Assembly: GCA_964016885.1 (NCBI GenBank)
Contig: CAXHJY010001210.1
Span: 1-48,554 of the forward strand
DNA length: 48,554 bases
Origin: Eledone cirrhosa
Taxonomy: Eukaryota
Direction: 5' to 3'
Positions 4,088 through 43,406 of this stretch are shown piece by piece. Made by a program: the position numbers and the translations under genes. The notes below the pieces were generated by a model that searched no databases, was not told the DNA's origin, and worked only from the letters and a program-made list of their open reading frames with translations. Position 1 is the first letter of the stretch; each line of letters opens with the position of its first letter.

Positions 4088-4150
<63 letters not shown>

Positions 4151-4154
<4 letters not shown>

Positions 4155-4892
4155 ATTTAGTATATCTACTAACATATGCGTACAGATGTACACTAATGCT
4201 AGCAAATACATAAGTTATGTCATAGTACCTAGGTGGTTCAATGCAGGAGGATGCAGAACAATAATATGAAAGACGTAAAATAAGAAAATTTAAAAAAAAG
4301 TTAAAAAAATTAACTTACTTACTAAAATTTTCACTCCAACTAATTAGTTTCTGTAATGGGATAAAGACAGTTACGTAATATAACCGTCGAGAATTCATTA
4401 CGTCATCAGGGAGTCTATTCTCAGCTAAGTCTCCAGGCAATGCGCGGACACTGGGGACTCATATAAAAATAATAATAATTCGGTAGATGGAACAGCTAGC
4501 GGGGACTGGATTCCATGCACTGAAAAGCTCGCTGTCTCTGGTCAAATGGCAGATTCTAAAGAATCAATCACGTGACACTGAGGCTAGTCGGAAGGAGTGG
4601 GATGGTAAGATGACAGAAGCCTACTACCACACCAGTGAATTAGTAGTGGTTTTGGCAGGTTTGCTCAACAAATAAATAATTTGGAGATAAATATAGAGAA
4701 TTTAGTATAACTACTAACATATGCGTACAGATGTACACTAATGCTAGCAAATACATAAGTTATGTAATTGTACCTAGGTGGTTCAATGCAGGAGGATGCA
4801 GAACAATAATATGAAAGACGTAAAATAAGAAAATTTTAGTAAGTAAGTTAATTTTTTTAATTTTTAAAAAATTTTCTTATTTTACGTCTTTC

Positions 4893-4898
<6 letters not shown>
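4151..4898. mobile_element. Non-coding PLE pseudo-LTR-like element (family B): 545-bp period direct repeat plus inverted tail
   Basis: 4151-4290 repeated at 4696-4835; 4838-4898 is the reverse complement of ~4262-4324; homologous to 40008-40702. Confidence 0.75.
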
Positions 4899-4929
<31 letters not shown>

Positions 4930-5151
4930 ATATTTGGGGAGGGTCATATTTGCGTAATATTGCCAGAATTAATAACAGAACACACTCACTGTTTGGTTGG
5001 TTTTCGCTTCTCGCTGTCTTTTATATATATATATCTGCGATCTAACTTACTCGGTCCTCAATGTTGCCATTGACTGACCGGCGGTCAAAAATAATACAGA
5101 TACAATATAGACACAAACACATATATATAGTTTACATAATTTACATAAATC

Positions 5152-5179
5152 TTTCGTTGCACATCTGCAACATCGTCAG
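5152..5179 (-). ncRNA. Partial hammerhead motif in the PLE 1 pseudo-LTR (sense strand)
   Basis: CTGACGA t gttgca gatg tgcaac GAAA; stems I and III not evident; homologue at ~21765-21788. Confidence 0.5.
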
Positions 5180-5457
5180 TGGTGTTATATTCATTGTTCC
5201 TCCTGTTGTGTTGTATGTCTACGCCATTTTTTTTTTTTTTTTTCGTTCAGTCTGTCTATATATTTATTTATTTATTTGCTTGTTTGTTTATCTTATTTTA
5301 TTTTGTCTTCTTTGCGCATGCGTTTGCGTGTGTGTATAGTGTTATGTGTGATGTGTGACTAGTGTGTATAGTGTTGTGTCTGCTGGGTGACTAGTGTGTG
5401 TTTATGTGCTTGTGTATGTATTTATTTATCTTATTTTATTTAATTTTATTTACTTAT

Positions 5458-7872
5458 TTATACTTCTCTTAGGTCAGTGTTGTTTGTTTGGGTGTTGTTG
5501 TTGTTCCACTCATTCTTTCTGTTTAGCTTTGGTTTTCTAATTTCTATTTCACTGGCCTCTCTGATTTGCCTATCTGCTGGGTCATTCCTATGTTTAGATA
5601 TTATTCTAATTTCTATGTTGTCTATGTTACCGTCATGTTGTTGTCTAGCATGTTCGTATAGTACTGACCCGTTTTTTCGTCCTTTTAGTTCCCCCCAGTG
5701 TTGGTCTATCCTTTCACCTATGCTACGAACTGTCTCACCTATGTATGTTGTTGTCATGTTTCTGCAAGTACCCTCTGTACATCTTATGCTATAGACTACG
5801 TTTCTAGTTGTACAGTTTATCCGGGGGTTCACCTTACAAATGATACATTTCCTATTGGTACAGTGGGTTTTCTTAAAAGGGTAGGTTTTGCTGATCAGGG
5901 ATTTTATGGTGGTTCCTGGCTTTTCTACCACCTTTATTTTTAAGTGGGTCTTTCTCAGGGCCTTTCTACACTGGTTAGCTAATTTCCCTCCAGGGGTGGC
6001 GTCCACAAACATGACACTCTGATATCTCTGGTTGTCGTACCATGATGTGGCCTTCCCTATCTTATGTCTAGCCCTATCTAAGCTATTCCATGATTTGCTC
6101 CTGTATAGTGGGCAAATTCCTTTCATGTCCAGTTCTATGAGGGTCTTATACTTTTCCATGGCTCCTTCGTATACTCTGACTCTGTCTCTTTGGTTGTAGC
6201 CAGAGAACTGCATGCGGTTGATGAAGTGTTGGATGTGTCCTTCCATTTCTGTTGGGTCGCACATGCTGGACACATTCTTCATCATTCGTACCAAATCTGC
6301 GATCAGAATATTAAACTTAGCACTACTGGACATTGCTGAGTTTTTGAGTATCAGGTATTTGGAGGCCATGGGTTTAGCATAGTGTGAGTGGAGAATGTGG
6401 GCTCTCTCGTCTATAGTGTTAATCCAGAGTTCTGTGTCTAATACAGGTAGTCTATTGTTAGGGTGTTTGGAAGGGAAGTCTATAGTTACAGTTATACTCT
6501 GGTGTATGGAATTAGCTATCTGCTGGATGCTTTCCATCGTGCTACGTTCTAAATCAAACTTGTTAGTGCTCTCTAGTGGGGGTGTTCTTATAACTATATT
6601 GATATCGTCTACATAACGAGAGTACATGATGAGGTCTATGGAGCTTTCATTAAGGAGATCTTTAAGTCTCCTTTCCCACCATACCATGAAAAGGTTGGCA
6701 ATATCACCAGCTATGCTGACGCCGATGGCTGCTCCCTCATTTTGGGTGTAGATTTTCTCATTGAACTTAAATATGTGGCCCTTTAGGGTAGTTTTGATAC
6801 TAGCCCCTATTGCATGTGCGACCATTTTTCTTACCTGATCAGTGTTTTGGGGGGTCCGTATAGCTTTGGTCCACCCAATCCACCTTCCTATGGGAGTCTT
6901 TTTAGCCATTGAGGTTATGGTGGGGGGTCTACCTCTTATAGGTCTACTAGGGCAGAAACATCTAAGGTCATGGCTGTCTAGGTAGTCAGTGTCGTAGGTA
7001 AGTCTAAGTAGGAGGCCCAGTTCGTCTGTGTCGACGTCGCAGAACTCCACCTCACTCTCAATGATCATCTCCACACATCTTTTCACAGCAAAATCAATGT
7101 TAATGGATGGGTACAGTGACACCACATCCATGCTGCCTATTATGCAGTTGGATAGGCTCCTGTTTTTGTTGCACTCACTGATTCTGCTGAGGAGGTCCTC
7201 TGTACTTTCACATACATCTGGGGACATCTTGATTATGGGGCGTATAACCATTGAGAGGAAGTAGGAGATCCTGTAGTTGCTAGCTATATTAGCTCCGCAT
7301 ACGGGTCTTGTTGGTGGTCCTGTTGTCGGGTCGTCGACTGTCTTGTGGTCTTTGCGGAGCCCATACAAGGGTGGTATGCCATTGTTAGACGCCTGGAAGT
7401 TGTTGGCAGTGCGTCTGCTTGGCTTTAGGATGTCAGTCCACATCATCATGTGAGCGTTGAGGATTTTTTCTCTCCCATCGTGTGTTAGTTGTGCAACTTC
7501 GCTCGTGTTGGTGATGTGGGGTTGCATTGCCTCGATGTAGTTCGGCATGCTATCTATTGACATCCTACCAGACTTATCTGTGGGTAGACACACTACCTCA
7601 CCATCCCTTGTGCGCTGCTTGAGGCTAACCAAGCCTTCTACAGGTTTTATCCCAAGTTGTTGGGCCTCTGGTCTGCTCTGTCTCATAGTGTACCTGTCTA
7701 CTACTTGTCTAATGTTATTTCTAGCTATGGTGAACTGTGCCTCCGTCTCGTCATCTATTTGCTGTGGTATGCAAACTCTTTTATTAAAGGGTAACCTCGT
7801 AGGATAGATATTACCCATCTTATATGTTTTGTCCCCAAATATAACAATATCTGTTTCGACACACGATTTCAT
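5458..7872 (-). CDS. Penelope-like retroelement ORF: reverse transcriptase + C-terminal GIY-YIG endonuclease (804 aa, open; probably 5'-truncated; tentatively Naiad-like)
   Basis: RT motifs PTRPVCG, GSMDVVSLYPSI, QNEGAAIG, SRYVDD, LPVLD; Cys linker CTNRKCIIC; GIY-YIG VVYSIRC...TYIGETVRSIGERIDQH; C-terminal REASEI...PKLN. Confidence 0.95.
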   Translation of the reverse strand: MKSCVETDIVIFGDKTYKMGNIYPTRLPFNKRVCIPQQIDDETEAQFTIARNNIRQVVDRYTMRQSRPEAQQLGIKPVEGLVSLKQRTRDGEVVCLPTDKSGRMSIDSMPNYIEAMQPHITNTSEVAQLTHDGREKILNAHMMMWTDILKPSRRTANNFQASNNGIPPLYGLRKDHKTVDDPTTGPPTRPVCGANIASNYRISYFLSMVIRPIIKMSPDVCESTEDLLSRISECNKNRSLSNCIIGSMDVVSLYPSINIDFAVKRCVEMIIESEVEFCDVDTDELGLLLRLTYDTDYLDSHDLRCFCPSRPIRGRPPTITSMAKKTPIGRWIGWTKAIRTPQNTDQVRKMVAHAIGASIKTTLKGHIFKFNEKIYTQNEGAAIGVSIAGDIANLFMVWWERRLKDLLNESSIDLIMYSRYVDDINIVIRTPPLESTNKFDLERSTMESIQQIANSIHQSITVTIDFPSKHPNNRLPVLDTELWINTIDERAHILHSHYAKPMASKYLILKNSAMSSSAKFNILIADLVRMMKNVSSMCDPTEMEGHIQHFINRMQFSGYNQRDRVRVYEGAMEKYKTLIELDMKGICPLYRSKSWNSLDRARHKIGKATSWYDNQRYQSVMFVDATPGGKLANQCRKALRKTHLKIKVVEKPGTTIKSLISKTYPFKKTHCTNRKCIICKVNPRINCTTRNVVYSIRCTEGTCRNMTTTYIGETVRSIGERIDQHWGELKGRKNGSVLYEHARQQHDGNIDNIEIRIISKHRNDPADRQIREASEIEIRKPKLNRKNEWNNNNTQTNNTDLREV

Positions 7873-7904
7873 ATAAAAAACCTCGCAAAACTAATTCATC
7901 GCCG

Positions 7905-7978
<74 letters not shown>

Positions 7979-14113: not shown

Positions 14114-15511
14114 ATAACGAAGGAAGTGTTGAAAGGAACCAGGTGGACCATAACGCACCAGAGTACTCAATACTTAGGGTAGTAGAGTGGGTAATAGGAA
14201 AATGTTCAAGACCCTGACGGCAGAGCTCAAGCCGTTTCGACGGTTATTTCAGGACTAAAGTAGATTTTAGCGTGGTAATAAATAGCCGAACTTTTCCATA
14301 TATAGGAAGATTGTAGTTTTCAAAAGGGTTGGTCAAAATTTCTTGTAAACGCAATTAAATCATTCATGTCAATGGGTGGGGGCGGGGTTGTGGTGGCTGA
14401 ACTTGCCTGTAGAACAATGAGGATGTGGGTGGAGCCAATCAAGCGTTGAAAGTGAATTCTATAGACCAAATGCTAAGGAGTGTGGATGAAATTAGGCTAG
14501 CTAGAAAGCAGGCCAAAAAAGAATTCTGGAGAGATCTGAGAGTGAGAAGTTATAAAATTAAAAAATTAAAAAGTTAAGAAATTGGAATAAAAAAATTAAA
14601 AGATAATAAAAAAAAAAATGATATTATTAGCTGGTATTGCGTTTTCAGCCAATGCTATATAGAATTTACTGGGGTGGGGTACTGAAGCTACAAAATCCTG
14701 ATGAGAGTGGAAGGAAGTGAGAAGAAGAGATAAAGGGAGAAAAGAAAAGAAGTACATCTACCTATGTATGCTGGGGTTTCCCCTATCTTGTTCGGCAAGT
14801 GGGGAAAAGAAGGATGTTGCAGCCATTGTCTACCCACCTGGATCATGAGAGGGTTTGAGGGTGAGGTAAGTCATACGCAATCGGTGTTTACATGCGGTTA
14901 CAAGTTCGTCTTTTTTGTTTAGGAGTTGGTCCTTCGTAAACAGCATTTGTATTGTTTCCTCCGAGCATAAGTTACGGCGTCCTCCCGTGTAGAAGTTAGC
15001 ACTGGAAAGTAAGCTCCAAGTAAGATGGTATGTGATGTTATTATCTTGGAAGTCCCAGATGTGGCCCGAAAGTGTAGTGACATGTCGCCGGGCCGGGTTT
15101 CTGAACGTATGTCGGTGTTGGTAGAGCCGGGTCTTAAAGTCACAAGCGGTTAATCCGATATAGGCTTTGTTGGAGTTTTCTGTCCTCACGTTGCATAAGT
15201 AGATCACGTTACGTTCTCGGCATCTGGTGTTGAAGGGGCACGTAGATCTAACAGTGCAGTTACACCACCTGGTCGGCTCTCCACTGATGTCCAGGTTGTT
15301 CCTTCCATAGGAGTTGAGTTTCCCACCGCCATGAAAGACTTAATTGTGTTTACAAGAAATGTTGACCAATCCTTTTGACAACTACAATCTTCCCATATAT
15401 GAAATTACCCCTTGAAACGTTCGGGTATTTATTACCACGCTAAAAATCTAATTTAGTCCAGTAATATCCGTCGAATCGCTTCAGCTCTGCCGTCGGGGTC
15501 TTGAACATTTT

Positions 15512-15909: not shown

Positions 15910-15937
15910 GACGTTTCGGGCACAATCCCTTCATCAG
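15910..15937 (-). ncRNA. Hammerhead core without an evident stem I
   Basis: Reverse complement: CTGATGA agggattgtgccc GAAAC GTC; stem II ggg/ccc; stem III ACGT. Confidence 0.55.
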
Positions 15938-20889: not shown

Positions 20890-21563
20890 TTAGGGAGAAG
20901 TGTTTAGACGGGGTCCGTATTTGTTAATGAAGTAAGATTCCTTGCTGATGCGCTGGGTGTGGGTGGCATTATCTTTAAATTTGTAGAGGGGAAAGATTCT
21001 GAAGTTGGGATGATTTTGGGCGGCGCAGGTATCAATGTGTTCACTCAGTTGTATTTTCCTGTATTCCCGTATTTTAATTTGGGATCTATGGACAGTCATG
21101 CGTTGGCGGAGGCTGTTTTTGGTCTGGCCTATGTATTGTTCTCGACAACCTGAACAAGTTAATACATATATTAAATTTTCCGATGCACATGTGAAATTGT
21201 GTTTTACTATAAAACGTTGTCCATCTTTGAAATAGAATTCCGAACCCTCTATTAGGTTGATGCAAATGCCACAGTTGGGTCTATCGCATTTTTTTACTGT
21301 GGGTTTCGTTGTTGTGGTTGGCAGTACTTTGGCATGTGTTAAGATGTTTTTCATTGACTTGGATTGTCTTTTGCTCTTTATGATATCGTGTGTTCGTAGA
21401 ATTTGGTTCATTCTATGGTCCTTTTTCAATACAGGGATGTTCTGGAGGATGGTGTCAAAGGCCTCGTTGTTGAGGGGGTTGTGTGTGGAGATGTATGGAA
21501 GAGCTTTTAGTTTTGGTTGATTTACTTTAGGGTGTCTAAGGTCCTGGGCACTGAGTTTTAGGG
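20890..21563 (-). pseudogene. PLE linker + GIY-YIG endonuclease fragment (Neptune-like), 5'-truncated at a (TA)n
   Basis: CDRPNCGIC linker; FTCASENLIYVLTCSGCREQYIGQT...LRQRMTVHR...SEH...ESYFINKY.P.LN. The listed ORF's N-terminus (21564-21714) reads through (TA)n into pseudo-LTR sequence and is probably spurious. Confidence 0.88.
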
Positions 21564-21576
21564 CATATATATATAT

Positions 21577-21830
21577 ATTGTTATACTTGGGGAGGGTCAT
21601 ATTGTTGTTATAATATTGCCAGAAGTAATAACAGAACACATTCACTGTTTGGTTTGGGTTGGTTCTCGCTTCTGTATGTTTTATATCTCCATAGTTAATT
21701 TTTTTGATAAACATTGATACAGATTTAAATATATATATATATATAGTCTATCAAAGTCCATTCGTCACGCATCTGCGACATCATCAGTGGTACTATTATG
21801 TTTCTTCCCATTGTATTTTAATGTCTACGC
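21577..21830 (-). mobile_element. Solo pseudo-LTR related to the 3' end of PLE 1
   Basis: attgttata.ttggggagggtcatatt...aataacagaacac and catctgc.acatc.tcagtgg...atgtctacgcca match 4924-5226. Confidence 0.8.
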
Positions 21831-25369: not shown

Positions 25370-25729
25370 CCCGGTAAGCCACACACTATTGAGTAAATTT
25401 TAAAACACATGCTGTAGTGTATACATCCTGTTAAACCACATTCTACAGTGTATACTACAAAATAATGTGTATATATCCCGATAAATTACACGCTATGGTG
25501 TAAATGGTAAAGCCCATACTATAGTGTATATTGTATATGACACGCTATAGTATATATCCCCTGGTAAATTGCACACTATAGTGTAAATAGTAATTCATAT
25601 ACGATAGTGTAAATTGTATACCACACGCTATAGTGTATATCTCCCGATAGATTACACGTTATAGTGTATCTCTTCCAACAAACCACACGTTTTAGTGTAT
25701 ATCTTCCGTTAGACCACAGACAATAGTAT

Positions 25730-27812
25730 GTCCTACAATAGTGATAGCTGCGATAGTATATATGTCCTACAATAGTGATAGCTGCAATAGCATGTCTTAC
25801 AATAATGATAGCTGCAATAGTATATATGTCCTACAATAGTGATAGCTGCAATAGCATGTCTTACAATAGTGATAGCTGCAATAGTATGTCCTACAATAGT
25901 GATAGCTGCAATAGTATGTCCTACAATAGTGATAGCTGCAATAGTATGTCCTACAATAGTGATAGCTGCAATAGTATGTCCTACAATAATGATAGCTGCA
26001 ATAATATGTCCTACAATAGTGATAGCTGCAATAGTGTGTCCTACAATAGTGATAGCTGCAATAGTATGTCCCACTATAGTGATAGCTGCAATAGTGTGTC
26101 CTACAATAGTGATAGCTGCAATAGTATGTCCTACAATAATGATAGCTGCAATAATATGTCCTACAATAGTGATAGCTGCAATAGTATGTCCTACAATAGT
26201 GATAGCTGCAATAGTATATGTCCCACTATAGTGATAGCTGCAATAGTATGTCCTACAATAGTGATAGCTGCAATAGTATGTCCTACAATAGTGATAGCTG
26301 CAATAGTATGTCCTACAATAGTGATAGCTGCAATAGTATGTCCTACAATAGTGATAGCTGCAATAGTATGTCCCACTATAGTGATAGCTGCAATAGTATG
26401 TCCTACAATAGTGATAGCTGCAATAGTATGTCCTACAATAGTGATAGCTGCAATAGTATGTCCTACAATAGTGATAGCTGCAATAGTATATGTCCCACTA
26501 TAGTGATAGCTGCAATAGTATGTCCTACAATAGTGATAGCTGCAATAGTATATGTCCCACTATAGTGATAGCTGCAATAGTGTGTCCTACAATAGTGATA
26601 GCTGCAATAGTATATGTCCCACTATAGTGATAGCTGCAATAGTATGTCCTACAATAGTGATAGCTGCAATAGTATATATGTCCTACAATAGTGATAGCTG
26701 CAATAGTATATGTCCCACTATAGTGATAGCTGCAATAGTATGTCCCACAATAATGATAGCTGCAATAGTATATATGTCCTACAATAGTGATAGCTGCAAT
26801 AGTATGTCCTACAATAATGATAGCTGCAATAGTATATATGTCCTACAATAGTGATAGCTGCAATAGTATGTCCCACAATAATGATAGCTGCAATAGTATA
26901 TATGTCCTACAATAGTGATAGCTGCAATAGTATGTCCTACAATAGTGATAGCTGCAATAGTATATATGTCCTACAATAGTGATAGCTGCAATAGTATGTC
27001 CTACAATAGTGATAGCTGCAATAGTATGTCCTACAATAGTGATAGCTGCAATAGTATGTCCTACAATAGTGATAGCTGCAATAGTATGTCCTACAATAGT
27101 GATAGCTGCAATAGTATGTCCTACAATAGTGATAGCTGCAATAATATGTCCTACAATAGTGATAGCTGCAATAGTATGTCCTACAATAGTGATAGCTGCA
27201 ATAGTATGTCCCACTATAGTGATAGCTGCAATAGTATATGTCCCACTATAGTGATAGCTGCAATAGTGTGTCCCACAATAATGATAGCTGCAATAGTATA
27301 TATGTCCTACAATAGTGATAGCTGCAATAATATGTCCTACAATAGTGATAGCTGCAATAGTATGTCCTACAATAGTGATAGCTGCAATAGTATGTCCCAC
27401 TATAGTGATAGCTGCAATAGTATATGTCCCACTATAGTGATAGCTGCAATAGTATGTCCCACAATAATGATAGCTGCAATAGTATATATGTCCTACAATA
27501 GTGATAGCTGCAATAGTATGTCCTACAATAGTGATAGCTGCAATAGTATGTCCTACAATAGTGATAGCTGCAATAGTATGTCCTACAATAGTGATAGCTG
27601 CAATAATATGTCCTACAATAGTGATAGCTGCAATAATATGTCCTACAATAGTGATAGCTGCAATAGTGTGTCCTACAATAGTGATAGCTGCAATAGTATA
27701 TGTCCCACAATAGTGATAGCTGCATTAGTATGTCCCACAATAGTGATAGCTGCAATAGTATGTCCTACAATAGTGATAGCTGCAATAGTATGTCCCACTA
27801 TAGTGATAGCTG
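25730..27812. repeat. 30-bp minisatellite (~68 units), consensus tcctacaatagtgatagctgcaatagtatg
   Basis: Directly visible; 32/34-bp variants add TA; variant start tcccactatagtg. Confidence 0.98.
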
Positions 27813-28491: not shown

Positions 28492-28920
28492 GGGGTTTAA
28501 ACGCTGAATGATATCGTTTTTCCATGTTTCTAAGTAATATAATAGTTGACTCTATTATGATGTAACACATCAGATACTGCTGGATGGTCTCGTATGTTCG
28601 GTGTGTGTTTTATCATCGTTTTACCGACTGTCTGTCTGTGTATCTGTCTGTCAGTCTGTCAGTCTGTCAGACTGTCTGTATGTCTGTCTGTCAGTCTGTC
28701 TGCCTGTCAGTCTGTCTGTCTGTCTGTCGTTGATAGTAGAAGTCTTACACATCGGCTCTTCGATTTTGAATCTTTACTTGGTTATTTGTGAGTGTATTAT
28801 TTAAATTGTTTTACTGTTGTTGACTCTAACCCCTCGTCTGGGACTGTAGACGTAGGGTAAATATATTTTCGCTCCTTTTGGGGTGAAAAAATATTTAATT
28901 CAAAATGTTTATCTATATCG

Positions 28921-30720
28921 TTGAAAACGAGGAAGCCATATTGTAAGCTAACGCCACGCCCACCAAAAAAAAAAAGCGAGAAAGAGGGAACAACAATTCA
29001 AACTGTTGAACAACCCCTCCTCTCGAATGGAAAAAACACTATTAATTCGAGTGAAAACCTAAATTTTGAAGAAAAAAATAACAAGGAAATAAACACCACA
29101 AAAGATGAAACCAACAACATTGCAACAACAAGCAACAATAAACGAGGCGAAAGCAACAAAGACAAAAAAGTTTATTTTGCCCAAACGGTCAGGAAAGCTA
29201 TCGAGTACAAGCCCATAGACATTACAAACGCTAAGCAGAACTTGCTAAATGCCAGAAAATACGTATCTTTTGGGGAGGATGGTTCTTTTACGATCAACTC
29301 CCCAGAAGAAGTTCGTCAACAGGTATATAGGAATACCATAACCTTCAGGACTATATCCAACGCAACAAGAAAGCCAGCTCAATTGACAGAAAGTCAAATT
29401 GAGCTGGTGCTGAAAGACATAAAAAAAGACATACTCTTTATTGAAAGAGGAAAGTTGTATGTCAACATTATGGTCCGAATGAAGGACGAAATGCTGGCTT
29501 AAAAATGCTCGGTGGCACCTATAGTGTCACCACAATACACCTTCTTCCCCACGTATAAAGGAAGAAGGACACAAAGACTAAGAATGTGGAGCTCAACGCC
29601 AGAAGTAAACATCTGGTCCGTCCTGACAGGATTTACGGACCTAGAAAAGGACATCCTAATATCAGCAGGGGAGTCCACCAGTGGACTGTTCGGGGGGAAA
29701 AGTCTGGAGGTTCTCTTACAGATGACACCTGAGAGAATCGCCGGAATACCCGACCGAGTCCTACTAGATGGTCGAACCTTTATTAATATTACGGTGGAAG
29801 GCAGGAGGCCCTCATGTTACCACTGCGCTGGCAGAGGTCACCTGAAGACTGCCTGCCCTCTACTAACAGCAAAAAAACCACTGCTACAAACACCACAACA
29901 ACAAAAACAACCAGCACCACCACCACAAAAACAACAAAATACACTACCATCACAACCACAACGACAACAAAAACCAACAACACCACCTCCAGCACCACCA
30001 CCACCACAACAACAGCTCAAGAAAACAACCCAAAACACGGTCCCACCCAGTCCCTCCCCACAGAACACAAATACAAAAACACACGCAGTGCATACACAAC
30101 CTGGAAATATACCCCTCCCCTCCAATACGGAAGAGGAGCTCATATCCTCGGACGACGAGGGGGCTCCCTTCCAAAAAGTCAAAAGGAAAAAACGTACACG
30201 CACCACACAAACAAAAATAACCCCACCTGACAACACAACACAGACAACAAAACGCAAGCTCACGCAAGAACAACAAGCAAAAACAAACACAACAACACAA
30301 AAACTCTACACATACATAAACAAAAACAATAAAAACTTAACAAAAAAAATAGACAACAACCCTTCGGTACAAACCGAAGGGCCGAATTTTGCAATGGCAA
30401 TGGGACTCCCTAACCTGAAAATGGTGAAAGTCCCAATTGACATTTTCAAAACATTGAAAAACATTTACCCTGAGGACGTGGGGCCACCCTGCACCAGGCC
30501 ACTCAACAGCGTCCTCCTGAAAGGTTTTCCCCTCCTCTCCTCAAACACCCACACAATTCCAAACCCCCCAACCCCTCCACACACTAATACCCCCCCCCCC
30601 CCCTCCCACAACCCCCCACCCAACAACCCCTCCACCACCCCCATGGAAACTGAGCAGCCCGGACCCCGGAACGAGAGAGGTAAGTGCCTCTTTCTTTTAC
30701 CACCAACATGGCTGTGTTAA
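28921..30720 (+). pseudogene. LINE ORF1 (nucleic-acid binding, zinc knuckle) with one in-frame stop
   Basis: 28921-29502 and 29512-30720 are in the same frame, split by TAA at 29500; VEGRRPSCYHCAGRGHLKTACP knuckle; Pro/Gln/Thr-rich tail; basic KVKRKKR. Confidence 0.85.
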
Positions 30721-33700
30721 GGGTAGGTTGTCTAAATGCGCGTGGCCTGGGCTCACCTTGGAAGCAAGCTAAACTTCTAAATGATCTCAGGTCACAATGT
30801 TTAAATGTGATGGTTATTTGCGAGGCCCGGATCAGCAGCGTGCGGCAACTAGCCCCCACCTTTGATGACTTTGAGATGCACGCATCTCTCTGTCAGCCCG
30901 GGGGTGGGGGTGGGGTTGTCGTTCTGCTGCAAAAACATCTAGGTCTCGCTACACAGACAGTACACTTGGACCCGGAGGGTCGACTCGTGGTTCTGGACCT
31001 TGGCAGTGGTGAAGGCGAAGCTTTTATGCTTGTCGCCGTATACGCTCCTTTTGGGGCAATGCGGTCGGACTTCTTCCATCGTCTGGAGACTTTTCTAGGG
31101 ACGTCCAGCTCCTTGCTTTTAGTGGGGGACTGGAATGGTATCCTAGATGCACGTTGGGACTATGTAGGGGCATGTCCCGATAGAGGGGGGTGTAACAGCC
31201 TCAAGGGGTTAATCGGCCGATTTGACCTGGCCGATAGATATCGACTAGATTTTCCGACTGTGCCAACCTGGACTTGGTCAAATAACAGTGGTCAATCTAG
31301 ATCGTACCTAGATAAGTTCTTAGTTACAATTAAGGATAGGAACTTTTTAAGTTGTCCAGAAATGCTCATGGTGGGCTATTCAGACCACAAGTTAGTGACC
31401 TGCGTAGTCCACCTTGATAGAACGCATAGGCAGGGACCCGGTTACTGGAAGCTCAACTTGTCCTTACCGGCAAGTAGAGCTTACAGGGACCGGATTAGAA
31501 CCTTAGTTAAGGAGCGGTTGACGGGCGCCATCGTCAACAGCAGGTGGCGGGGCTCTCTAAAAAGAGAGATTAGAGTAGTTTCAATAGGAGTTAGTAATGA
31601 GTTAGCCTCAGATACAAATAGGAAGGAAAGGGAGTTGGTAGTTAATGTTGAAGAGGCAATGAGAAGCGGTAACGTGGCCAGAGTGCAAGCGTCGAAAACG
31701 GCCTTGAACCAGTTCTTCGACGCGAAACACGAAGGCTGCGTTGTCCGAAGCAAAATACGTGCTCTGGGAAACGAGGGGACCAAAGCTGTTAGCTGGGCCC
31801 GCGTGACAGAAGCGAAAAGTGGGATTAGATCCACTATCCGGTCTTTGCGAGACCAGGATGGACGGGTGATCCTTGAACCTAAGCAAATGTGCGAGGCCTT
31901 TCAAAGACACATTGCCCGATTGTTCAGGAGGGGCGGGGGGCCGGTTGGAGATGTGGATTTCGGTCCATACCTCAACGGCCAGCCGCGTCTTTCGGACAAG
32001 GAGGCGATCTCAGCTGCGACGGGCCGATCTCAGCTGCTGAAATAGGGGACGTGCTGAGCCTATGCGGCAAACGCAAATCTCCAGGGCTCGATGGTCTGCC
32101 CTATGAACTATATATTAATATGCCGGACTTGTTCCCCGATCTCCTCGAGGCGGTCTACTACAACTGGCAACAGAACGGGAGAATTCCCTGTTCTGTGGCC
32201 AAGGGCGTAGTCTCGCTAGTGAGGAAGAACGAGAACAAGGGGGATGACATTAGTAATTTTAGGCCCATAACTCTGCTAAATGCAGAGTTAAAGATTTTGG
32301 CCAAGGTGTTAGCGAAGAGGTTGGCGCTTGTCGTGGTGGGCCTGGTGGGAGATGCGCAGACATGCGCTATCCCGTCCAGGTCCATCCACGACAACCTCCA
32401 CCTCATGCGATACATCATAGAGAGGGTTGGGAATGAACCCGGCTTTGGTGGGGCCCTGATAAATTTAGATCAGTCTAAAGCGTTCGATGGTTACCTGGAT
32501 GCGGTGCTAGCGGCGGCTGGTTTCGGACCCGTTTTCAGGGGCTGGATCACTGCCATGCACAGCAGCCGCATCTGCTCTAGAGTCAAGGTGAACGGCTACC
32601 TCTCGGAGCCGTTCGAAATCACCCGCTCCATCCGACAGGGGTGCCCTCTCTCCTCCCTTCTGTATGTATTGGCTCTCGAGCCACTACTGCGGAAGTTGGA
32701 GTTGTTGCAGGGCATCCCTTTGGAACCGGGATTGCGCAAAGTGGTGTCGGCCTACGCCGATGACGTAACAGTAATGGTGTCGACCACCGCGGAAATAGAG
32801 GCAATGGGCATCTTACTGGAGGAGTACGAAAGGTTGACAGGGGCTAAGCTGAACCGGGACAAGTCAGTCGCTTTGCAACTCGGCGACTGGAGGGGCAAAG
32901 CGATGTTGTCCAACGGTATCGTCGGACGGTGGACGGAGAGCCCGGTGAAGTTGCTTGGGGTCTGGTTCGGACCGGACCTCCAGGTGGAGAAAAACTGGGG
33001 TGAGGTAACGAATAGGGTGTTTGCACTGACCCAGAAGTGGGCCGAGTGCAAACTATCCCTGAAAGGTCGGGCGGAGTTGGCGAACTCTTACATAGCGTCC
33101 GTCATCTATTACCGCTTGACTGTCGTGCCTTGCCCGGGTGAGATCCTCGCCAAAATGGAGCGCGCCCTCTTTTATTTCCTTTGGAAGAAGAGGTCTCCTC
33201 TGGTGAGGAGATCTATCTGCTGTCAGCACCGATTGAAAGGAGGGCTGGGGATGCCGTGGCTAAAAATGCGTAAACACGCATTGAGGCTAAGGCACCTCCA
33301 GGTATTCCTCACCAGTCAACCGGTGTGGGCCCCGTTTGTGAGGCGAGCCTTGCCGAGGCTCGTCTCGCTCACCGAGCTGCAGTCCTGGGTGAAGCAAAGA
33401 CCGAGAAAACTGGGCGACTGGCACACCGAGTGTGCCCAGGCGCTCACGGCTCTCTGGCAGGCGGACCCGGCTATCGATGGAGACTCCACCTCGTCATTCT
33501 ATAGAGGGCTGGTGGTTAGCAGGTGCGACGACGCCCTCGGAGAAACCCTAGGCATGGAGGAGGACGAACTGGCTATTCGGTAGGACTTTCGGGCCGGGAC
33601 CTATGGACAACTTCCAGAAGTCCTTGGCCTGGCAGTGCTACCGAGGGGCTCTGCCCGTTCGGGATAAGCTCTACAGACACGGGCGCCCGGGTAGGGAGCC

Positions 33701-34130
33701 CTCGAAAAAGATCTGTCCGAAATGCGTGCGCGACGAGGAAACCGTTGTGCACGCATTGGTGCACTGCCCGGGCGTTGCCGATCTGTGGGGCTATGTCGAA
33801 CAACTGCTGTCACGGGTGGGACCAATTAGGTTGACCACCGAGTCCATTGTAACGATCAAGCCGCCTCCTCCCTTCAAAAATGAAGGAGAGGCGGTCTTCC
33901 TCTGTGTAATAGCCTTGGTAAAATAGGTTATATGGTGGACGCGTCTGAAAGGGCTGAGGTCGGACACCTTTCTTTCCGGCCAACAACTGGTCCTTTTCTT
34001 CCGATACCATTTCGGAAGAAGGATCAGGATGGAGAGAGAGGTGCTCCACTCCAGCCAGTTTTATGAAAGGTGGGTGAAAGTTGCGAGAATGGCCCGTGTG
34101 AATGGGCCTTCTCTCTACCTCAGCCTGTAG
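30708..34130 (+). pseudogene. LINE ORF2 (AP endonuclease + reverse transcriptase + Cys-rich C-terminus), disrupted
   Basis: ATG at 30708; APE motifs LNARGL, VYAP, GDWN, SYLD, SDH; RT motifs KSPGLDG, FRPITLLN, DQSKAFD, RQGCPLS, YADD; C-terminal CPKC..ETVVHALVHC. Frameshifts at ~32010 and ~33580, stop at 33924, frame continues to TAG 34128-34130. Confidence 0.93.
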
Positions 34131-39951: not shown

Positions 39952-40007
<56 letters not shown>

Positions 40008-40011
<4 letters not shown>

Positions 40012-40696
40012 AACGTAAAATAAGAGAATTATAATAATTAGCTTACTTACTTAAATTTCACTCCAACTAATTAGTTTCTGAAAGGGAATATACATAGTTT
40101 CCAAATAGAGACCATGGAGAAACCTTTTCTTCATCAGGGAGTCTCAGCTAAGATATACCTTGCATAGGTATACATCTGTATATATATGTTGGTAGATATA
40201 CTCATTCTTTATAATTATCTCCAAATTATTTTGTTGAGCAAAAATTTGCCAAAATTACTACTATAGTTCATAGTAACAGCTTGGCTACTGTCTTTTTAGC
40301 ACCCCACTCCTCACTGAATAACCTCGATGTCACGTAATTGATTCTTTTGAATTTGCCACCGAACAAGAAGGCAGTGATTTTTTCAGTGTCTTGGAATTTA
40401 GTCCCCGCTTGCTCTTTTCCATCCACTGAATTATTTTTGTATAAGTTCCCTGTGTCCGCGCATCGCTAGGTATCTTAGCTGAGAATGACTCCCTGATGAA
40501 GAAAAGGTTTCTCCATCGTCCCCATTTGTTGGAGGGAAATTTAAGTAAGTAAGCTAATTACTATAATTTTCTTATTTTACGTTTTTCATGTAATTGTTCT
40601 GCATCCCCTTGCATTGAACCACAAAGTTACTAAGACAAAACCTATATATTTGCTTGCATAGGTATACATCTGTATATATATGTTGGTAGATATACT

Positions 40697-40702
<6 letters not shown>
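40008..40702. mobile_element. Second family B copy with an internal inversion
   Basis: 40008-40152 is inverted relative to ~40474-40588; 40157-40208 repeated at 40653-40702; sequence matches 4151-4835. Confidence 0.75.
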
Positions 40703-40745
<43 letters not shown>

Positions 40746-42153: not shown

Positions 42154-42365
42154 TGTTTGTGTGTGAGCATATGTATAGGCTGAGACCCAGATAGTTTTCT
42201 TTGAAGTAGAACTTATAAATGGTAAAATTACTCTATGGGGATATGGAGCCGCAAACGTGTATATAAACACACTTACCTACCTTTATACATATATATATGT
42301 TTGTACATATAAGTGTATATGTATGTATACGTATCTATATATGTACGTATCTATATATACGTATA

Positions 42366-42404
<39 letters not shown>

Positions 42405-42483
42405 GAGAAGAACAGAACAAACAAATATTAAACAATTCCTTAAAAAAATTAAAAAATGATTTAAATATCTACCTGTTCATAAT

Positions 42484-42563
42484 GCTATTACCGTCGGTTT
42501 CGCTTTACAAAAGATTAGAAATTCAGAGAATTTCTAACGGAAAAGTAAAGTTCATCAGATAGC
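42484..42563 (-). ncRNA. Type I hammerhead ribozyme (mirror copy in the other palindrome arm)
   Basis: Reverse complement reads gctatCTGATGAactttac...gtaaagcGAAAccgacggTAatagc. Confidence 0.8.
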
Positions 42564-42923
42564 TATTTCCACTCTATAAGATAAAGTCCCACAGTCTGCA
42601 AATATACTGCAACTACCAGCTCGTATGAGTTATGGCCGTTAAAGAGTCCCACACATGAACTGGCCACTAATAAAAGCGGGAATATTACAGACGCGCTGCT
42701 GGCTTTGGTGTTATAAAAAAAAGCAGTAATCTATGTAGAGAAAAAAATTCGTTGTTGTTTACTGCTATTTTTTTAGCACCAAAGCCAGCAGCGCGTCTGT
42801 AATATTCCCGCTTTTATTAGTGGTCAGTTCACGTGTGGGTCTCTTTAACGACCATAACTCATACGAGCTGGTAGTTGCACTATATTTGCAGACTGTGGGA
42901 CTTTATCCTAGAGAGTGGAAATA

Positions 42924-43003
42924 GCTATCTGATGAACTTTACTTTTCCGTTAGAAATTCTCTGAATTTCTAATCTTTTGTAAAAGGAAACCGACGGTAAT
43001 AGC
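42924..43003 (+). ncRNA. Type I hammerhead ribozyme
   Basis: gctat CTGATGA [long stem II with ttagaaattc/gaatttctaa hairpin] GAAA ccgacgg TA atagc; stem I gctat/atagc; predicted cut after GUA at 42998. Confidence 0.8.
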
Positions 43004-43234
43004 ATTATGAACAGGTAGATATTTAAATCATTTTTTAATTTTTTTAAGGAATTGTTTAATATTTGTTTGTTCTGCTCATCTCAATTTTTATAGTTCTGGT
43101 ATCTCAAATTAGTACCATCGAACAACAATTACATTATAGACACCCTATATATCTCTATGCGTACTTAGTACCTAGAGAGATATTTACCTTATTTTATATA
43201 TATATATATATGTATATATATGTATATATATATG

Positions 43235-43406
<172 letters not shown>

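What the first reader, a model, noticed from the sequence alone, without database searches (positions are those of the whole stretch)
42402..43085. 680-bp palindrome with a complete hammerhead in each arm, one per strand
Each arm holds an intact type I hammerhead: 5-bp stem I, full core, GUA site and an unusually long ~50-nt stem II with a 10-bp perfect hairpin. Transcription from either direction would give an RNA containing a ribozyme and its own antisense. Self-cleavage would therefore compete with forming a ~325-bp dsRNA, which would be a plausible ADAR/Dicer substrate (inference). The arms differ at scattered positions.
Basis: partly seen in the sequence, partly recalled or inferred. Interest (0 to 1): 0.8.

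Follow-up and report, generated by a model that had tools for sequence, protein, structure and literature searches.

The report
Two-armed ribozyme-carrying mini-retroelement insertion
The hairpin is real, but it is one of many head-to-head insertions of a dispersed 478-base, protein-less repeat that carries a hammerhead-ribozyme motif and was likely pasted into TA microsatellites by a Penelope-type enzyme, so it is likely a by-product of copying rather than a purpose-built RNA switch.

Summary
The palindrome (arms 42401-42729 and 42759-43086, 96% complementary) and both type I hammerhead motifs are real, and the predicted cut at 42998/42999 is right. The feature is not unique, and it extends to 43198. 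It is one insertion of a dispersed family (303 exact hits of a 26-nt tag) built on a ~478-nt, ORF-less unit whose end runs back into its start. Of 110 loci read, 64 are head-to-head; 20 of those have an intact core in both arms. Arms end in (TA)n at two sites 106 nt apart, and two-armed loci nearly always use one of each (52 A+B, 1 A+A, 0 B+B). That is the Penelope-like 'inverted copy plus one-sided tail' signature, here on a retrozyme-type unit. Three compensatory changes in stem II suggest selection on the fold in the source lineage. At this locus a read-through RNA makes the antisense arm first (-545 vs about -15 kcal/mol), stem III is weak, and the right arm has a broken stem II pair, so cleavage would be suppressed rather than in competition. 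No expression data and no autonomous partner were found. Known kind; useful mechanistic detail.

The parts
42370..42400 (.). Left (TA)n target microsatellite (no target-site duplication can be read)
   Evidence: Sequence; tandem repeats 42284-42402
42401..42729 (-). Left arm: 329-nt 5'-truncated copy of the unit, sense on the minus strand, 3' end at site A, merging into (TA)n
   Evidence: blastn to a natural family copy
42484..42563 (-). Type I hammerhead motif of the left arm; all named stem pairs form; predicted cut 42489/42488
42728..42729 (.). 2-nt microhomology shared by the two 5' ends (head-to-head junction)
   Evidence: arm coordinates overlap by 2 nt; sequence
42728..43198 (+). Right arm: ~471-nt, almost one whole unit, 3' end at site B, merging into (TA)n; 42730-42758 is the unpaired loop of the hairpin
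42924..43003 (+). Type I hammerhead motif of the right arm: stem I 42924-28/42999-43003, core 42929-35 and 42986-89, stem II domain 42937-42984 (basal pair broken), stem III 42989-97; predicted cut 42998/42999
43093..43198 (+).
43199..43403 (.). Right (TA)n/(CA)n target microsatellite

Best explanation
This is one head-to-head, two-armed insertion of a dispersed, protein-less ~478-nt repeat with a type I hammerhead motif, likely copied from its RNA into a (TA)n tract by a Penelope-like reverse transcriptase-endonuclease acting in trans. Shown: the family, the closed unit, the two fixed end sites A and B 106 nt apart, the TA target, the one-A-one-B rule, the shared subfamily letters of the two arms and the microhomology junction. 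Inferred: source copies are transcribed as multimers, which the ribozyme (probably as a dimer or with protein help) trims to monomers or circles. The enzyme nicks both strands of the microsatellite and primes reverse transcription at A from one strand and at B from the other, probably on the same RNA. Both cDNAs grow inward, stop at variable points and join at a short microhomology. When both run past the ribozyme (A arm over about 170 nt, B arm over about 280 nt), each arm carries one. The palindrome is therefore a by-product; a read-through RNA would be a long duplex with a silenced ribozyme.
For: Family: 303 exact tag hits, control 0; 40 of 1798 candidates scored, the full-length matches other than the window itself at 89-94% identity. 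Architecture in 110 distinct loci: 64 head-to-head (52 A+B, 1 A+A, 0 B+B, 11 with an eroded end), 44 single-armed, 2 other. In the 74 loci picked only by the tag: 31 A+B, 1 A+A, 0 B+B (P about 8e-9 against independent choice). No tail-to-tail pair among the first 100 tag hits. 154 of 161 A/B ends are followed by TA repeats. Closed unit: same-strand spacing 476-481 nt in 6 of 8 intervals, 59 of 178 arms cross from B back into the unit start, and 45 of 161 arms exceed one unit. Same template: arms disagree at 7.6% of subfamily-diagnostic sites against 39.6% between loci. Independent priming: in L109 and L145 the two arms share no sequence, which fold-back copying cannot give. Ribozyme: core intact in 115 of 134 segments; three stem II pairs changed on both sides in 26, 21 and 25 of 83 distinct sequences; 5 of 100 unbiased tag hits start exactly at the cut site, 0.3 expected. 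A young autonomous Penelope-like family in the same genome (1216-aa ORF, 131 scored copies at 99-100%) shows the same TA target and two-end logic. Literature: one-sided tail and inverted 5'-truncated copy (PMC8557442, PMC3846280, passages); two internal RT start sites, both strands extended, predicted dimer (PMC11167929, main text).
Against: No autonomous partner was found: the unit has no significant match to the autonomous family checked (best E 0.078 over 31 loci). The tail is 106 nt, against the 30-40 nt in print. No cleavage was shown. 147 of 178 arms read through a cut site, and two other 5'-end hotspots (unit positions 374 and 465) have similar rates. Four of the five cut-site starts abut TA repeats that could anneal there. 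The count of covarying pairs did not beat the shuffle (436 of 500 reached it), and the three changes may each be one event. [quoted passage not shown] Rfam does not call the motif. The G10.1-C11.1 pair is absent.
Confidence: 0.8

Rival explanations
1. The unit is only the pseudo-LTR end of an autonomous Penelope-like element not yet found, and all copies are its 5'-truncated ends.
For: Same insertion grammar as autonomous elements. Retrozymes match pLTRs in Xenopus (bioRxiv 10.64898/2026.07.22.740005, results read). I read 110 loci of a family with at least 303 tag hits.
Against: Going upstream, arms close back on their own tail (59 of 178) instead of entering an ORF. tblastn with three Penelope-like proteins from the window found no ORF joined to an arm's 5' end; the nearest case, L042, points the other way beyond ~220 nt of TA repeat. 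Among 44 single-arm loci only the duplicated pair L138/L139 shares the abutting flank.
Confidence: 0.07
2. The second arm was made by fold-back self-priming of the first cDNA (or by later gene conversion), not by a second priming on RNA.
For: The arms share subfamily letters. Junctions have short overlaps (42 of 64 overlap by 1-22 nt). L026 pivots on a self-complementary 10-mer. Self-priming was proposed in PMC3846280 (passage).
Against: Arms with no shared sequence (L109, L145) or about 10 nt shared (L113) cannot be copies of each other. It does not by itself explain why the ends alternate A/B.
Confidence: 0.06
3. One reading: this locus works as a switch between self-cleavage and a dsRNA for ADAR or Dicer.
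For: A ~328-bp duplex would form; both cores are intact.
Against: The same shape occurs at 20 of 64 head-to-head loci. Arm divergence (4.3%) equals the family mean for arms (3.9%). The antisense arm is transcribed first. The + arm has a broken stem II pair. I saw no host gene: the window's long ORFs are retroelements or simple repeats, though exons were not searched for.
Confidence: 0.05
4. Assembly artefact (fold-back read).
For: The window is a small 48.5-kb contig; no public record spans the locus.
Against: The arms differ at 14 sites and one indel and end at different family-defined sites. The same design occurs at 63 other loci, most on chromosome-scale contigs.
Confidence: 0.02

Closest known systems
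Insertion units of endonuclease-bearing Penelope-like elements (Craig et al. 2021, PMC8557442; Arkhipova et al. 2013, PMC3846280; Frangieh et al. 2024, PMC11167929)
   Same: 5' truncation, partial tandems, adjacent inverted 5'-truncated copy, head-to-head geometry, tail on one end only, microsatellite target, type I hammerhead upstream of the two end sites.
   Different: No ORF; the unit closes on itself at ~478 nt; the tail is 106 nt rather than 30-40; the one-A-one-B rule is near-absolute here (52:1:0).
Non-LTR retrozymes of animals (Cervera and de la Pena 2020, PMC7229834; Li et al. 2026, bioRxiv 10.64898/2026.07.22.740005)
   Same: Non-coding, AT-rich repeat unit with one type I hammerhead per unit; co-occurs with autonomous Penelope-like elements; unit length inside the 51-972 bp range of Li et al.
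   Different: Dispersed 0.1-1.8-unit insertions, more than half of them two-armed, rather than tandem arrays; longer than the 170-400 nt of Cervera; linear or circular RNA not shown; 'inverted' does not occur in the main text of PMC7229834.
PLE-type hammerheads (Cervera and de la Pena 2014, PMC4209133)
   Same: Short helix I (5 bp), enlarged helix II, extra unpaired base after A9, short palindromic helix III suited to dimers.
   Different: Helix II domain of 48-50 nt with an inner 10-11 bp hairpin; no G10.1-C11.1 pair.
L1 twin priming (recalled, not read here)
   Same: Two target ends prime on one RNA and the cDNAs join at a microhomology, giving an inversion.
   Different: Here the arms usually overlap in sequence and can exceed one unit, and priming is at two fixed internal sites, not in a poly(A) tail.

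Membership tests
Type I hammerhead ribozyme | Core CUGANGA...GAAA...UH with three helices, helix I open | tested here: met
   Both arms; 115 of 134 family segments
Type I hammerhead ribozyme | G10.1-C11.1 pair at the base of helix II | tested here: not met
   A opposite C, G or U, then a covarying C-G/A-U/G-U pair; that pair is broken in the + arm
Type I hammerhead ribozyme | Covariation supporting the fold | tested here: inconclusive
   Three pairs with two-sided change; cells and score beat 500 of 500 shuffles, the pair count did not (436 of 500); relatedness inflates the first two
Type I hammerhead ribozyme | Match to an Rfam hammerhead model | tested here: not met
Type I hammerhead ribozyme | Self-cleavage | not testable with these tools
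   Indirect only: 5 of 100 arms start at the cut site, with other hotspots of similar rate
Autonomous Penelope-like element | RT plus GIY-YIG ORF within the unit | tested here: not met
   Unit closes at ~478 nt; no joined ORF
Penelope-type insertion product | Inverted 5'-truncated copy, head-to-head | tested here: met
   64 of 110 loci; 0 tail-to-tail in 74 clusters
Penelope-type insertion product | Tail on one end only (30-40 bp in print) | tested here: met
   52 of 53 loci with two clean ends; length 106 nt, outside the printed range
Penelope-type insertion product | Microsatellite or AT-rich target | tested here: met
   154 of 161 ends; 29 of 44 single-arm 5' flanks
Penelope-type insertion product | Homology to the pLTR of an autonomous partner | tested here: inconclusive
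   None to the one autonomous family checked; other families not surveyed
Non-LTR retrozyme | Non-coding repeat unit with one type I hammerhead per unit | tested here: met
Non-LTR retrozyme | Tandem arrays with two or more consecutive complete motifs | tested here: inconclusive
   Partial tandems only (14 of 178 arms pass two cut sites); no long array among 110 loci or the first 100 tag hits
Non-LTR retrozyme | Expressed as linear and circular monomer RNAs | not testable with these tools
   No RNA data could be laid on the unit
DNA fold-back transposon or MITE | Fixed terminal inverted repeats, fixed inner boundaries, target duplication | tested here: not met
   Inner ends vary freely, outer ends are unequal (A vs B), 44 of 110 copies are single-armed

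The most novel reading that the evidence does not exclude
The family is a genomic record of a Penelope-type enzyme dimer copying one ribozyme-made circular RNA from two fixed start sites at once, one per target strand, with strand displacement carrying arms past one full turn. That would link animal retrozyme circles directly to Penelope-type integration and give a strict, testable rule (one A end, one B end, same template) for how Penelope inverted repeats and one-sided tails arise.
Probability: 0.4. Interest if true: 0.65.

Novelty: new variant of a known kind. Interest (0 to 1): 0.35.

Why it matters
The locus itself is ordinary. The family matters because the papers read propose, but do not show, that Penelope-like enzymes mobilise animal retrozymes, and call the origin of Penelope inverted structures unresolved. 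A protein-less unit that carries the full Penelope insertion signature, with a 52:1:0 end rule and arms from one template, supports that link and yields a sharp in vitro prediction. It also seeds the genome with long inverted repeats (more than half of the loci read), which would be duplex RNA wherever they are transcribed.

Tried and rejected
Rfam scans gave no hammerhead call. Sequencing-run search: no RNA holder listed. Reads and contigs of four coded runs show the family's ends and closure, but no record spans the locus, and one run laid a single record. Search for an autonomous partner: tblastn of three window proteins on the loci, and blastn of the unit on 31 loci of the young autonomous family, found none; other Penelope-like families were not surveyed. 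The 'nearest other locus' distance was dropped as a comparator, because a minimum over ~100 loci is biased low (arms were closer than it in only 11 of 71 pairs). A circular fold of one natural unit was unremarkable (z -1.0), so there is no viroid-like rod. The first energy evaluation had an off-by-one structure string and was redone. Earlier-finding look-ups by sequence and by the long word list were empty. Rows left out: duplicate fetches of the same locus; L026 from the hazard count (it is the reference); L139 as a duplicate of L138 (single-arm list); 9 of 110 loci lacking a full motif from alignment A1. Six paper searches listed no paper describing this family or an A/B count; the library lacks most subscription journals, and no supplements were read.

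Full report
OBSERVATION. The inverted repeat is there: 42401-42719 pairs with 42768-43086 (319 nt, 96%), and with one indel the stem reaches about 328 bp around a 29-nt loop. Each arm has a type I hammerhead motif: cores at +42929 and -42558, 5-bp stem I, a 48-50 nt stem II domain with a 10-bp perfect hairpin, 3-bp stem III, GUA site, and cuts predicted at 42998/42999 and 42489/42488. The hammerhead fold scores -16.2 (left) and -13.5 kcal/mol (right), within 0.4 of each minimum-energy fold. Stem III pairs with probability only 0.12-0.26, and the right arm has the basal stem II pair broken. Rfam calls nothing.

IT IS A FAMILY. The window lies in a 3.0-Gb, microsatellite-rich genome. A search with the right arm gave 1798 candidates; of 40 scored, the full-length matches outside the window were 89-94% identical. 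A 26-nt tag just past the cut site has 303 exact hits (control 0), and a 19-nt core tag has 307. I read 110 distinct loci: those from three best-hit searches, plus all 74 clusters formed by the first 100 tag hits, which are not selected for likeness to the window beyond the tag. The unit is ~478 nt and closed: same-strand tag spacing is 476-481 in 6 of 8 intervals, 59 of 178 arms run from the unit's end back into its start, and 45 of 161 arms are longer than one unit. No RT or GIY-YIG ORF is joined to any arm's 5' end.

INSERTION GRAMMAR. Arms end at one of two sites, A and B, 106 nt apart, and 154 of 161 such ends run into TA repeats. Of 110 loci, 64 are head-to-head (3' ends outward), 44 single-armed and 2 other. 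Among the 64 there are 52 A+B, 1 A+A, 0 B+B and 11 with an eroded end. The unbiased 74 give 31, 1, 0 and 7 (P about 8e-9). The window is A (left) plus B (right), joined at a 2-nt microhomology at 42728-42729. Twenty of the 64 have an intact core in both arms, so the shape reported is routine. This matches the published Penelope-like pattern of an adjacent inverted 5'-truncated copy, a tail on one end only and a microsatellite bias (PMC8557442 and PMC3846280, passages read). It also matches the in vitro result that a Penelope-like protein nicks and extends both strands and starts at two internal RNA sites whose spacing is the tail (PMC11167929, abstract and main text read). A young autonomous family in this genome shows the same logic with a 58-nt spacing, but it has no homology to the unit, so the partner is unknown.

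ONE TEMPLATE, TWO PRIMINGS. Arms of one locus disagree at 7.6% of subfamily-diagnostic sites (93 of 1227) against 39.6% between loci, and at 3.0% of other sites against 4.4%. They came from the same or a near-identical template and then decayed. The window's 14 differences fit that and argue against an assembly fold-back. At L109 and L145 the two arms share no sequence, so there the second arm cannot be a fold-back copy of the first; both were primed on the RNA (inference). Overlapping arms and arms over one unit need a multimeric or circular template, or template jumps; I cannot separate these.

IS THE RIBOZYME REAL? At family level, probably. The core is intact in 115 of 134 segments. Subfamily changes in stem II are compensatory at three pairs (C-G/A-U, U-A/C-G, A-U/G-C; 26, 21 and 25 of 83 distinct sequences). 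The pair count does not beat the shuffle, though, and relatedness inflates the other measures. Five of 100 unbiased tag hits begin exactly at the cut site (0.3 expected; P 1.6e-5, 0.008 after 477 positions), and L006 and L088 add two more. Against this, positions 374 and 465 are hotspots of similar rate, four of the five abut TA repeats, and 147 of 178 arms read through a cut site. The short helix I, extra base after A9 and palindromic short helix III are those of PLE-type motifs that cleave poorly as monomers (PMC4209133, passages). In the preprint on animal retrozymes only 1 of 9 tested dimers cleaved (bioRxiv 10.64898/2026.07.22.740005, parts 1-3 of 5 read).

A read-through RNA would form the duplex (-545 kcal/mol for 42401-43200). 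Because the arms point outward, the antisense arm is always made before the ribozyme arm, so the ribozyme gets no head start, and opposite-strand motifs cannot dimerise in cis. Cleavage would be shut off rather than in competition (inference). Nothing marks this locus as selected: 4.3% arm divergence against a mean of 3.9%. Editing or dicing remains possible and untested.

COMPARISON AND VERDICT. It works like a Penelope-type insertion of a non-LTR-retrozyme-like unit (PMC7229834: abstract, passages and Discussion read; it names PLEs as candidate mobilisers). It is not an autonomous PLE (no ORF). Retrozyme membership is incomplete, since long arrays and RNA circles were not shown. What differs from print is the 106-nt tail, the long covarying stem II without G10.1-C11.1, the dispersed two-armed form and the near-absolute A+B rule. 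AI notes on other genomes reached the same reading for similar hairpins; these are unchecked leads, not support. Novelty: new variant of a known kind; interest 0.35.

Noticed in passing
window 4141-4900 (-) and 40004-40715: A second hammerhead-bearing, apparently ORF-less family with the same design: ~547-nt period, long stem II, palindromic stem III, short inverted arm plus long arm, ends in TA/CT repeats; the two window copies are ~73% alike, with relatives near L017, L113, L124, L130, L138/139. Only weak likeness to the main family (best E 0.002).
   Followed up: partly
window 4920-7905 (-); L193: 5'-truncated copy (810-aa open frame) of a very young autonomous Penelope-like family: 1216-aa ORF, ~4.12-kb tandem period, 19,688 candidates with 131 scored at 99-100%, hammerhead-like core in the spacer, two ends 58 nt apart in (TA)n, many head-to-head pairs. 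Likely still active.
   Followed up: partly
family alignment: Among variants shared by 10% or more of loci, sense-strand A>G (14 of 139 A) outnumbers T>C (6 of 176 T), while rare variants are symmetric (0.35 vs 0.35 per base). This is a weak, unrooted, post hoc hint that A-to-I editing of the element's RNA fed into subfamily evolution.
   Followed up: partly
window 14830-15339 (-), 15937 (-), 20890-21787 (-): Further Penelope-like remnants: a GIY-YIG fragment (Pfam PF01541, E 2.6e-6), a second endonuclease-like fragment without a Pfam hit, a minimal hammerhead-like core at 15937 and a decayed one at 21787.
   Followed up: no
window 28861-33926 (+): A broken LINE-like element (ORF1-like, endonuclease-like and RT-like frames by eye, in several pieces), GC-rich against its flanks; not scanned.
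   Followed up: no
window 25721-27812: Tandem array of 68 copies of a 30-nt unit, 91% matches.
   Followed up: no
L054:1282-1497; L123: The two loci that break the grammar: L054 has an extra tail-only hairpin before the main arm; L123 has two arms meeting at their 3' sides at unit position 250.
   Followed up: no
L088:1778-1825: At the junction a ~15-nt piece from elsewhere in the unit precedes an arm that starts exactly at the predicted cut site, as if the polymerase ran off a cleaved 5' end and jumped.
   Followed up: partly
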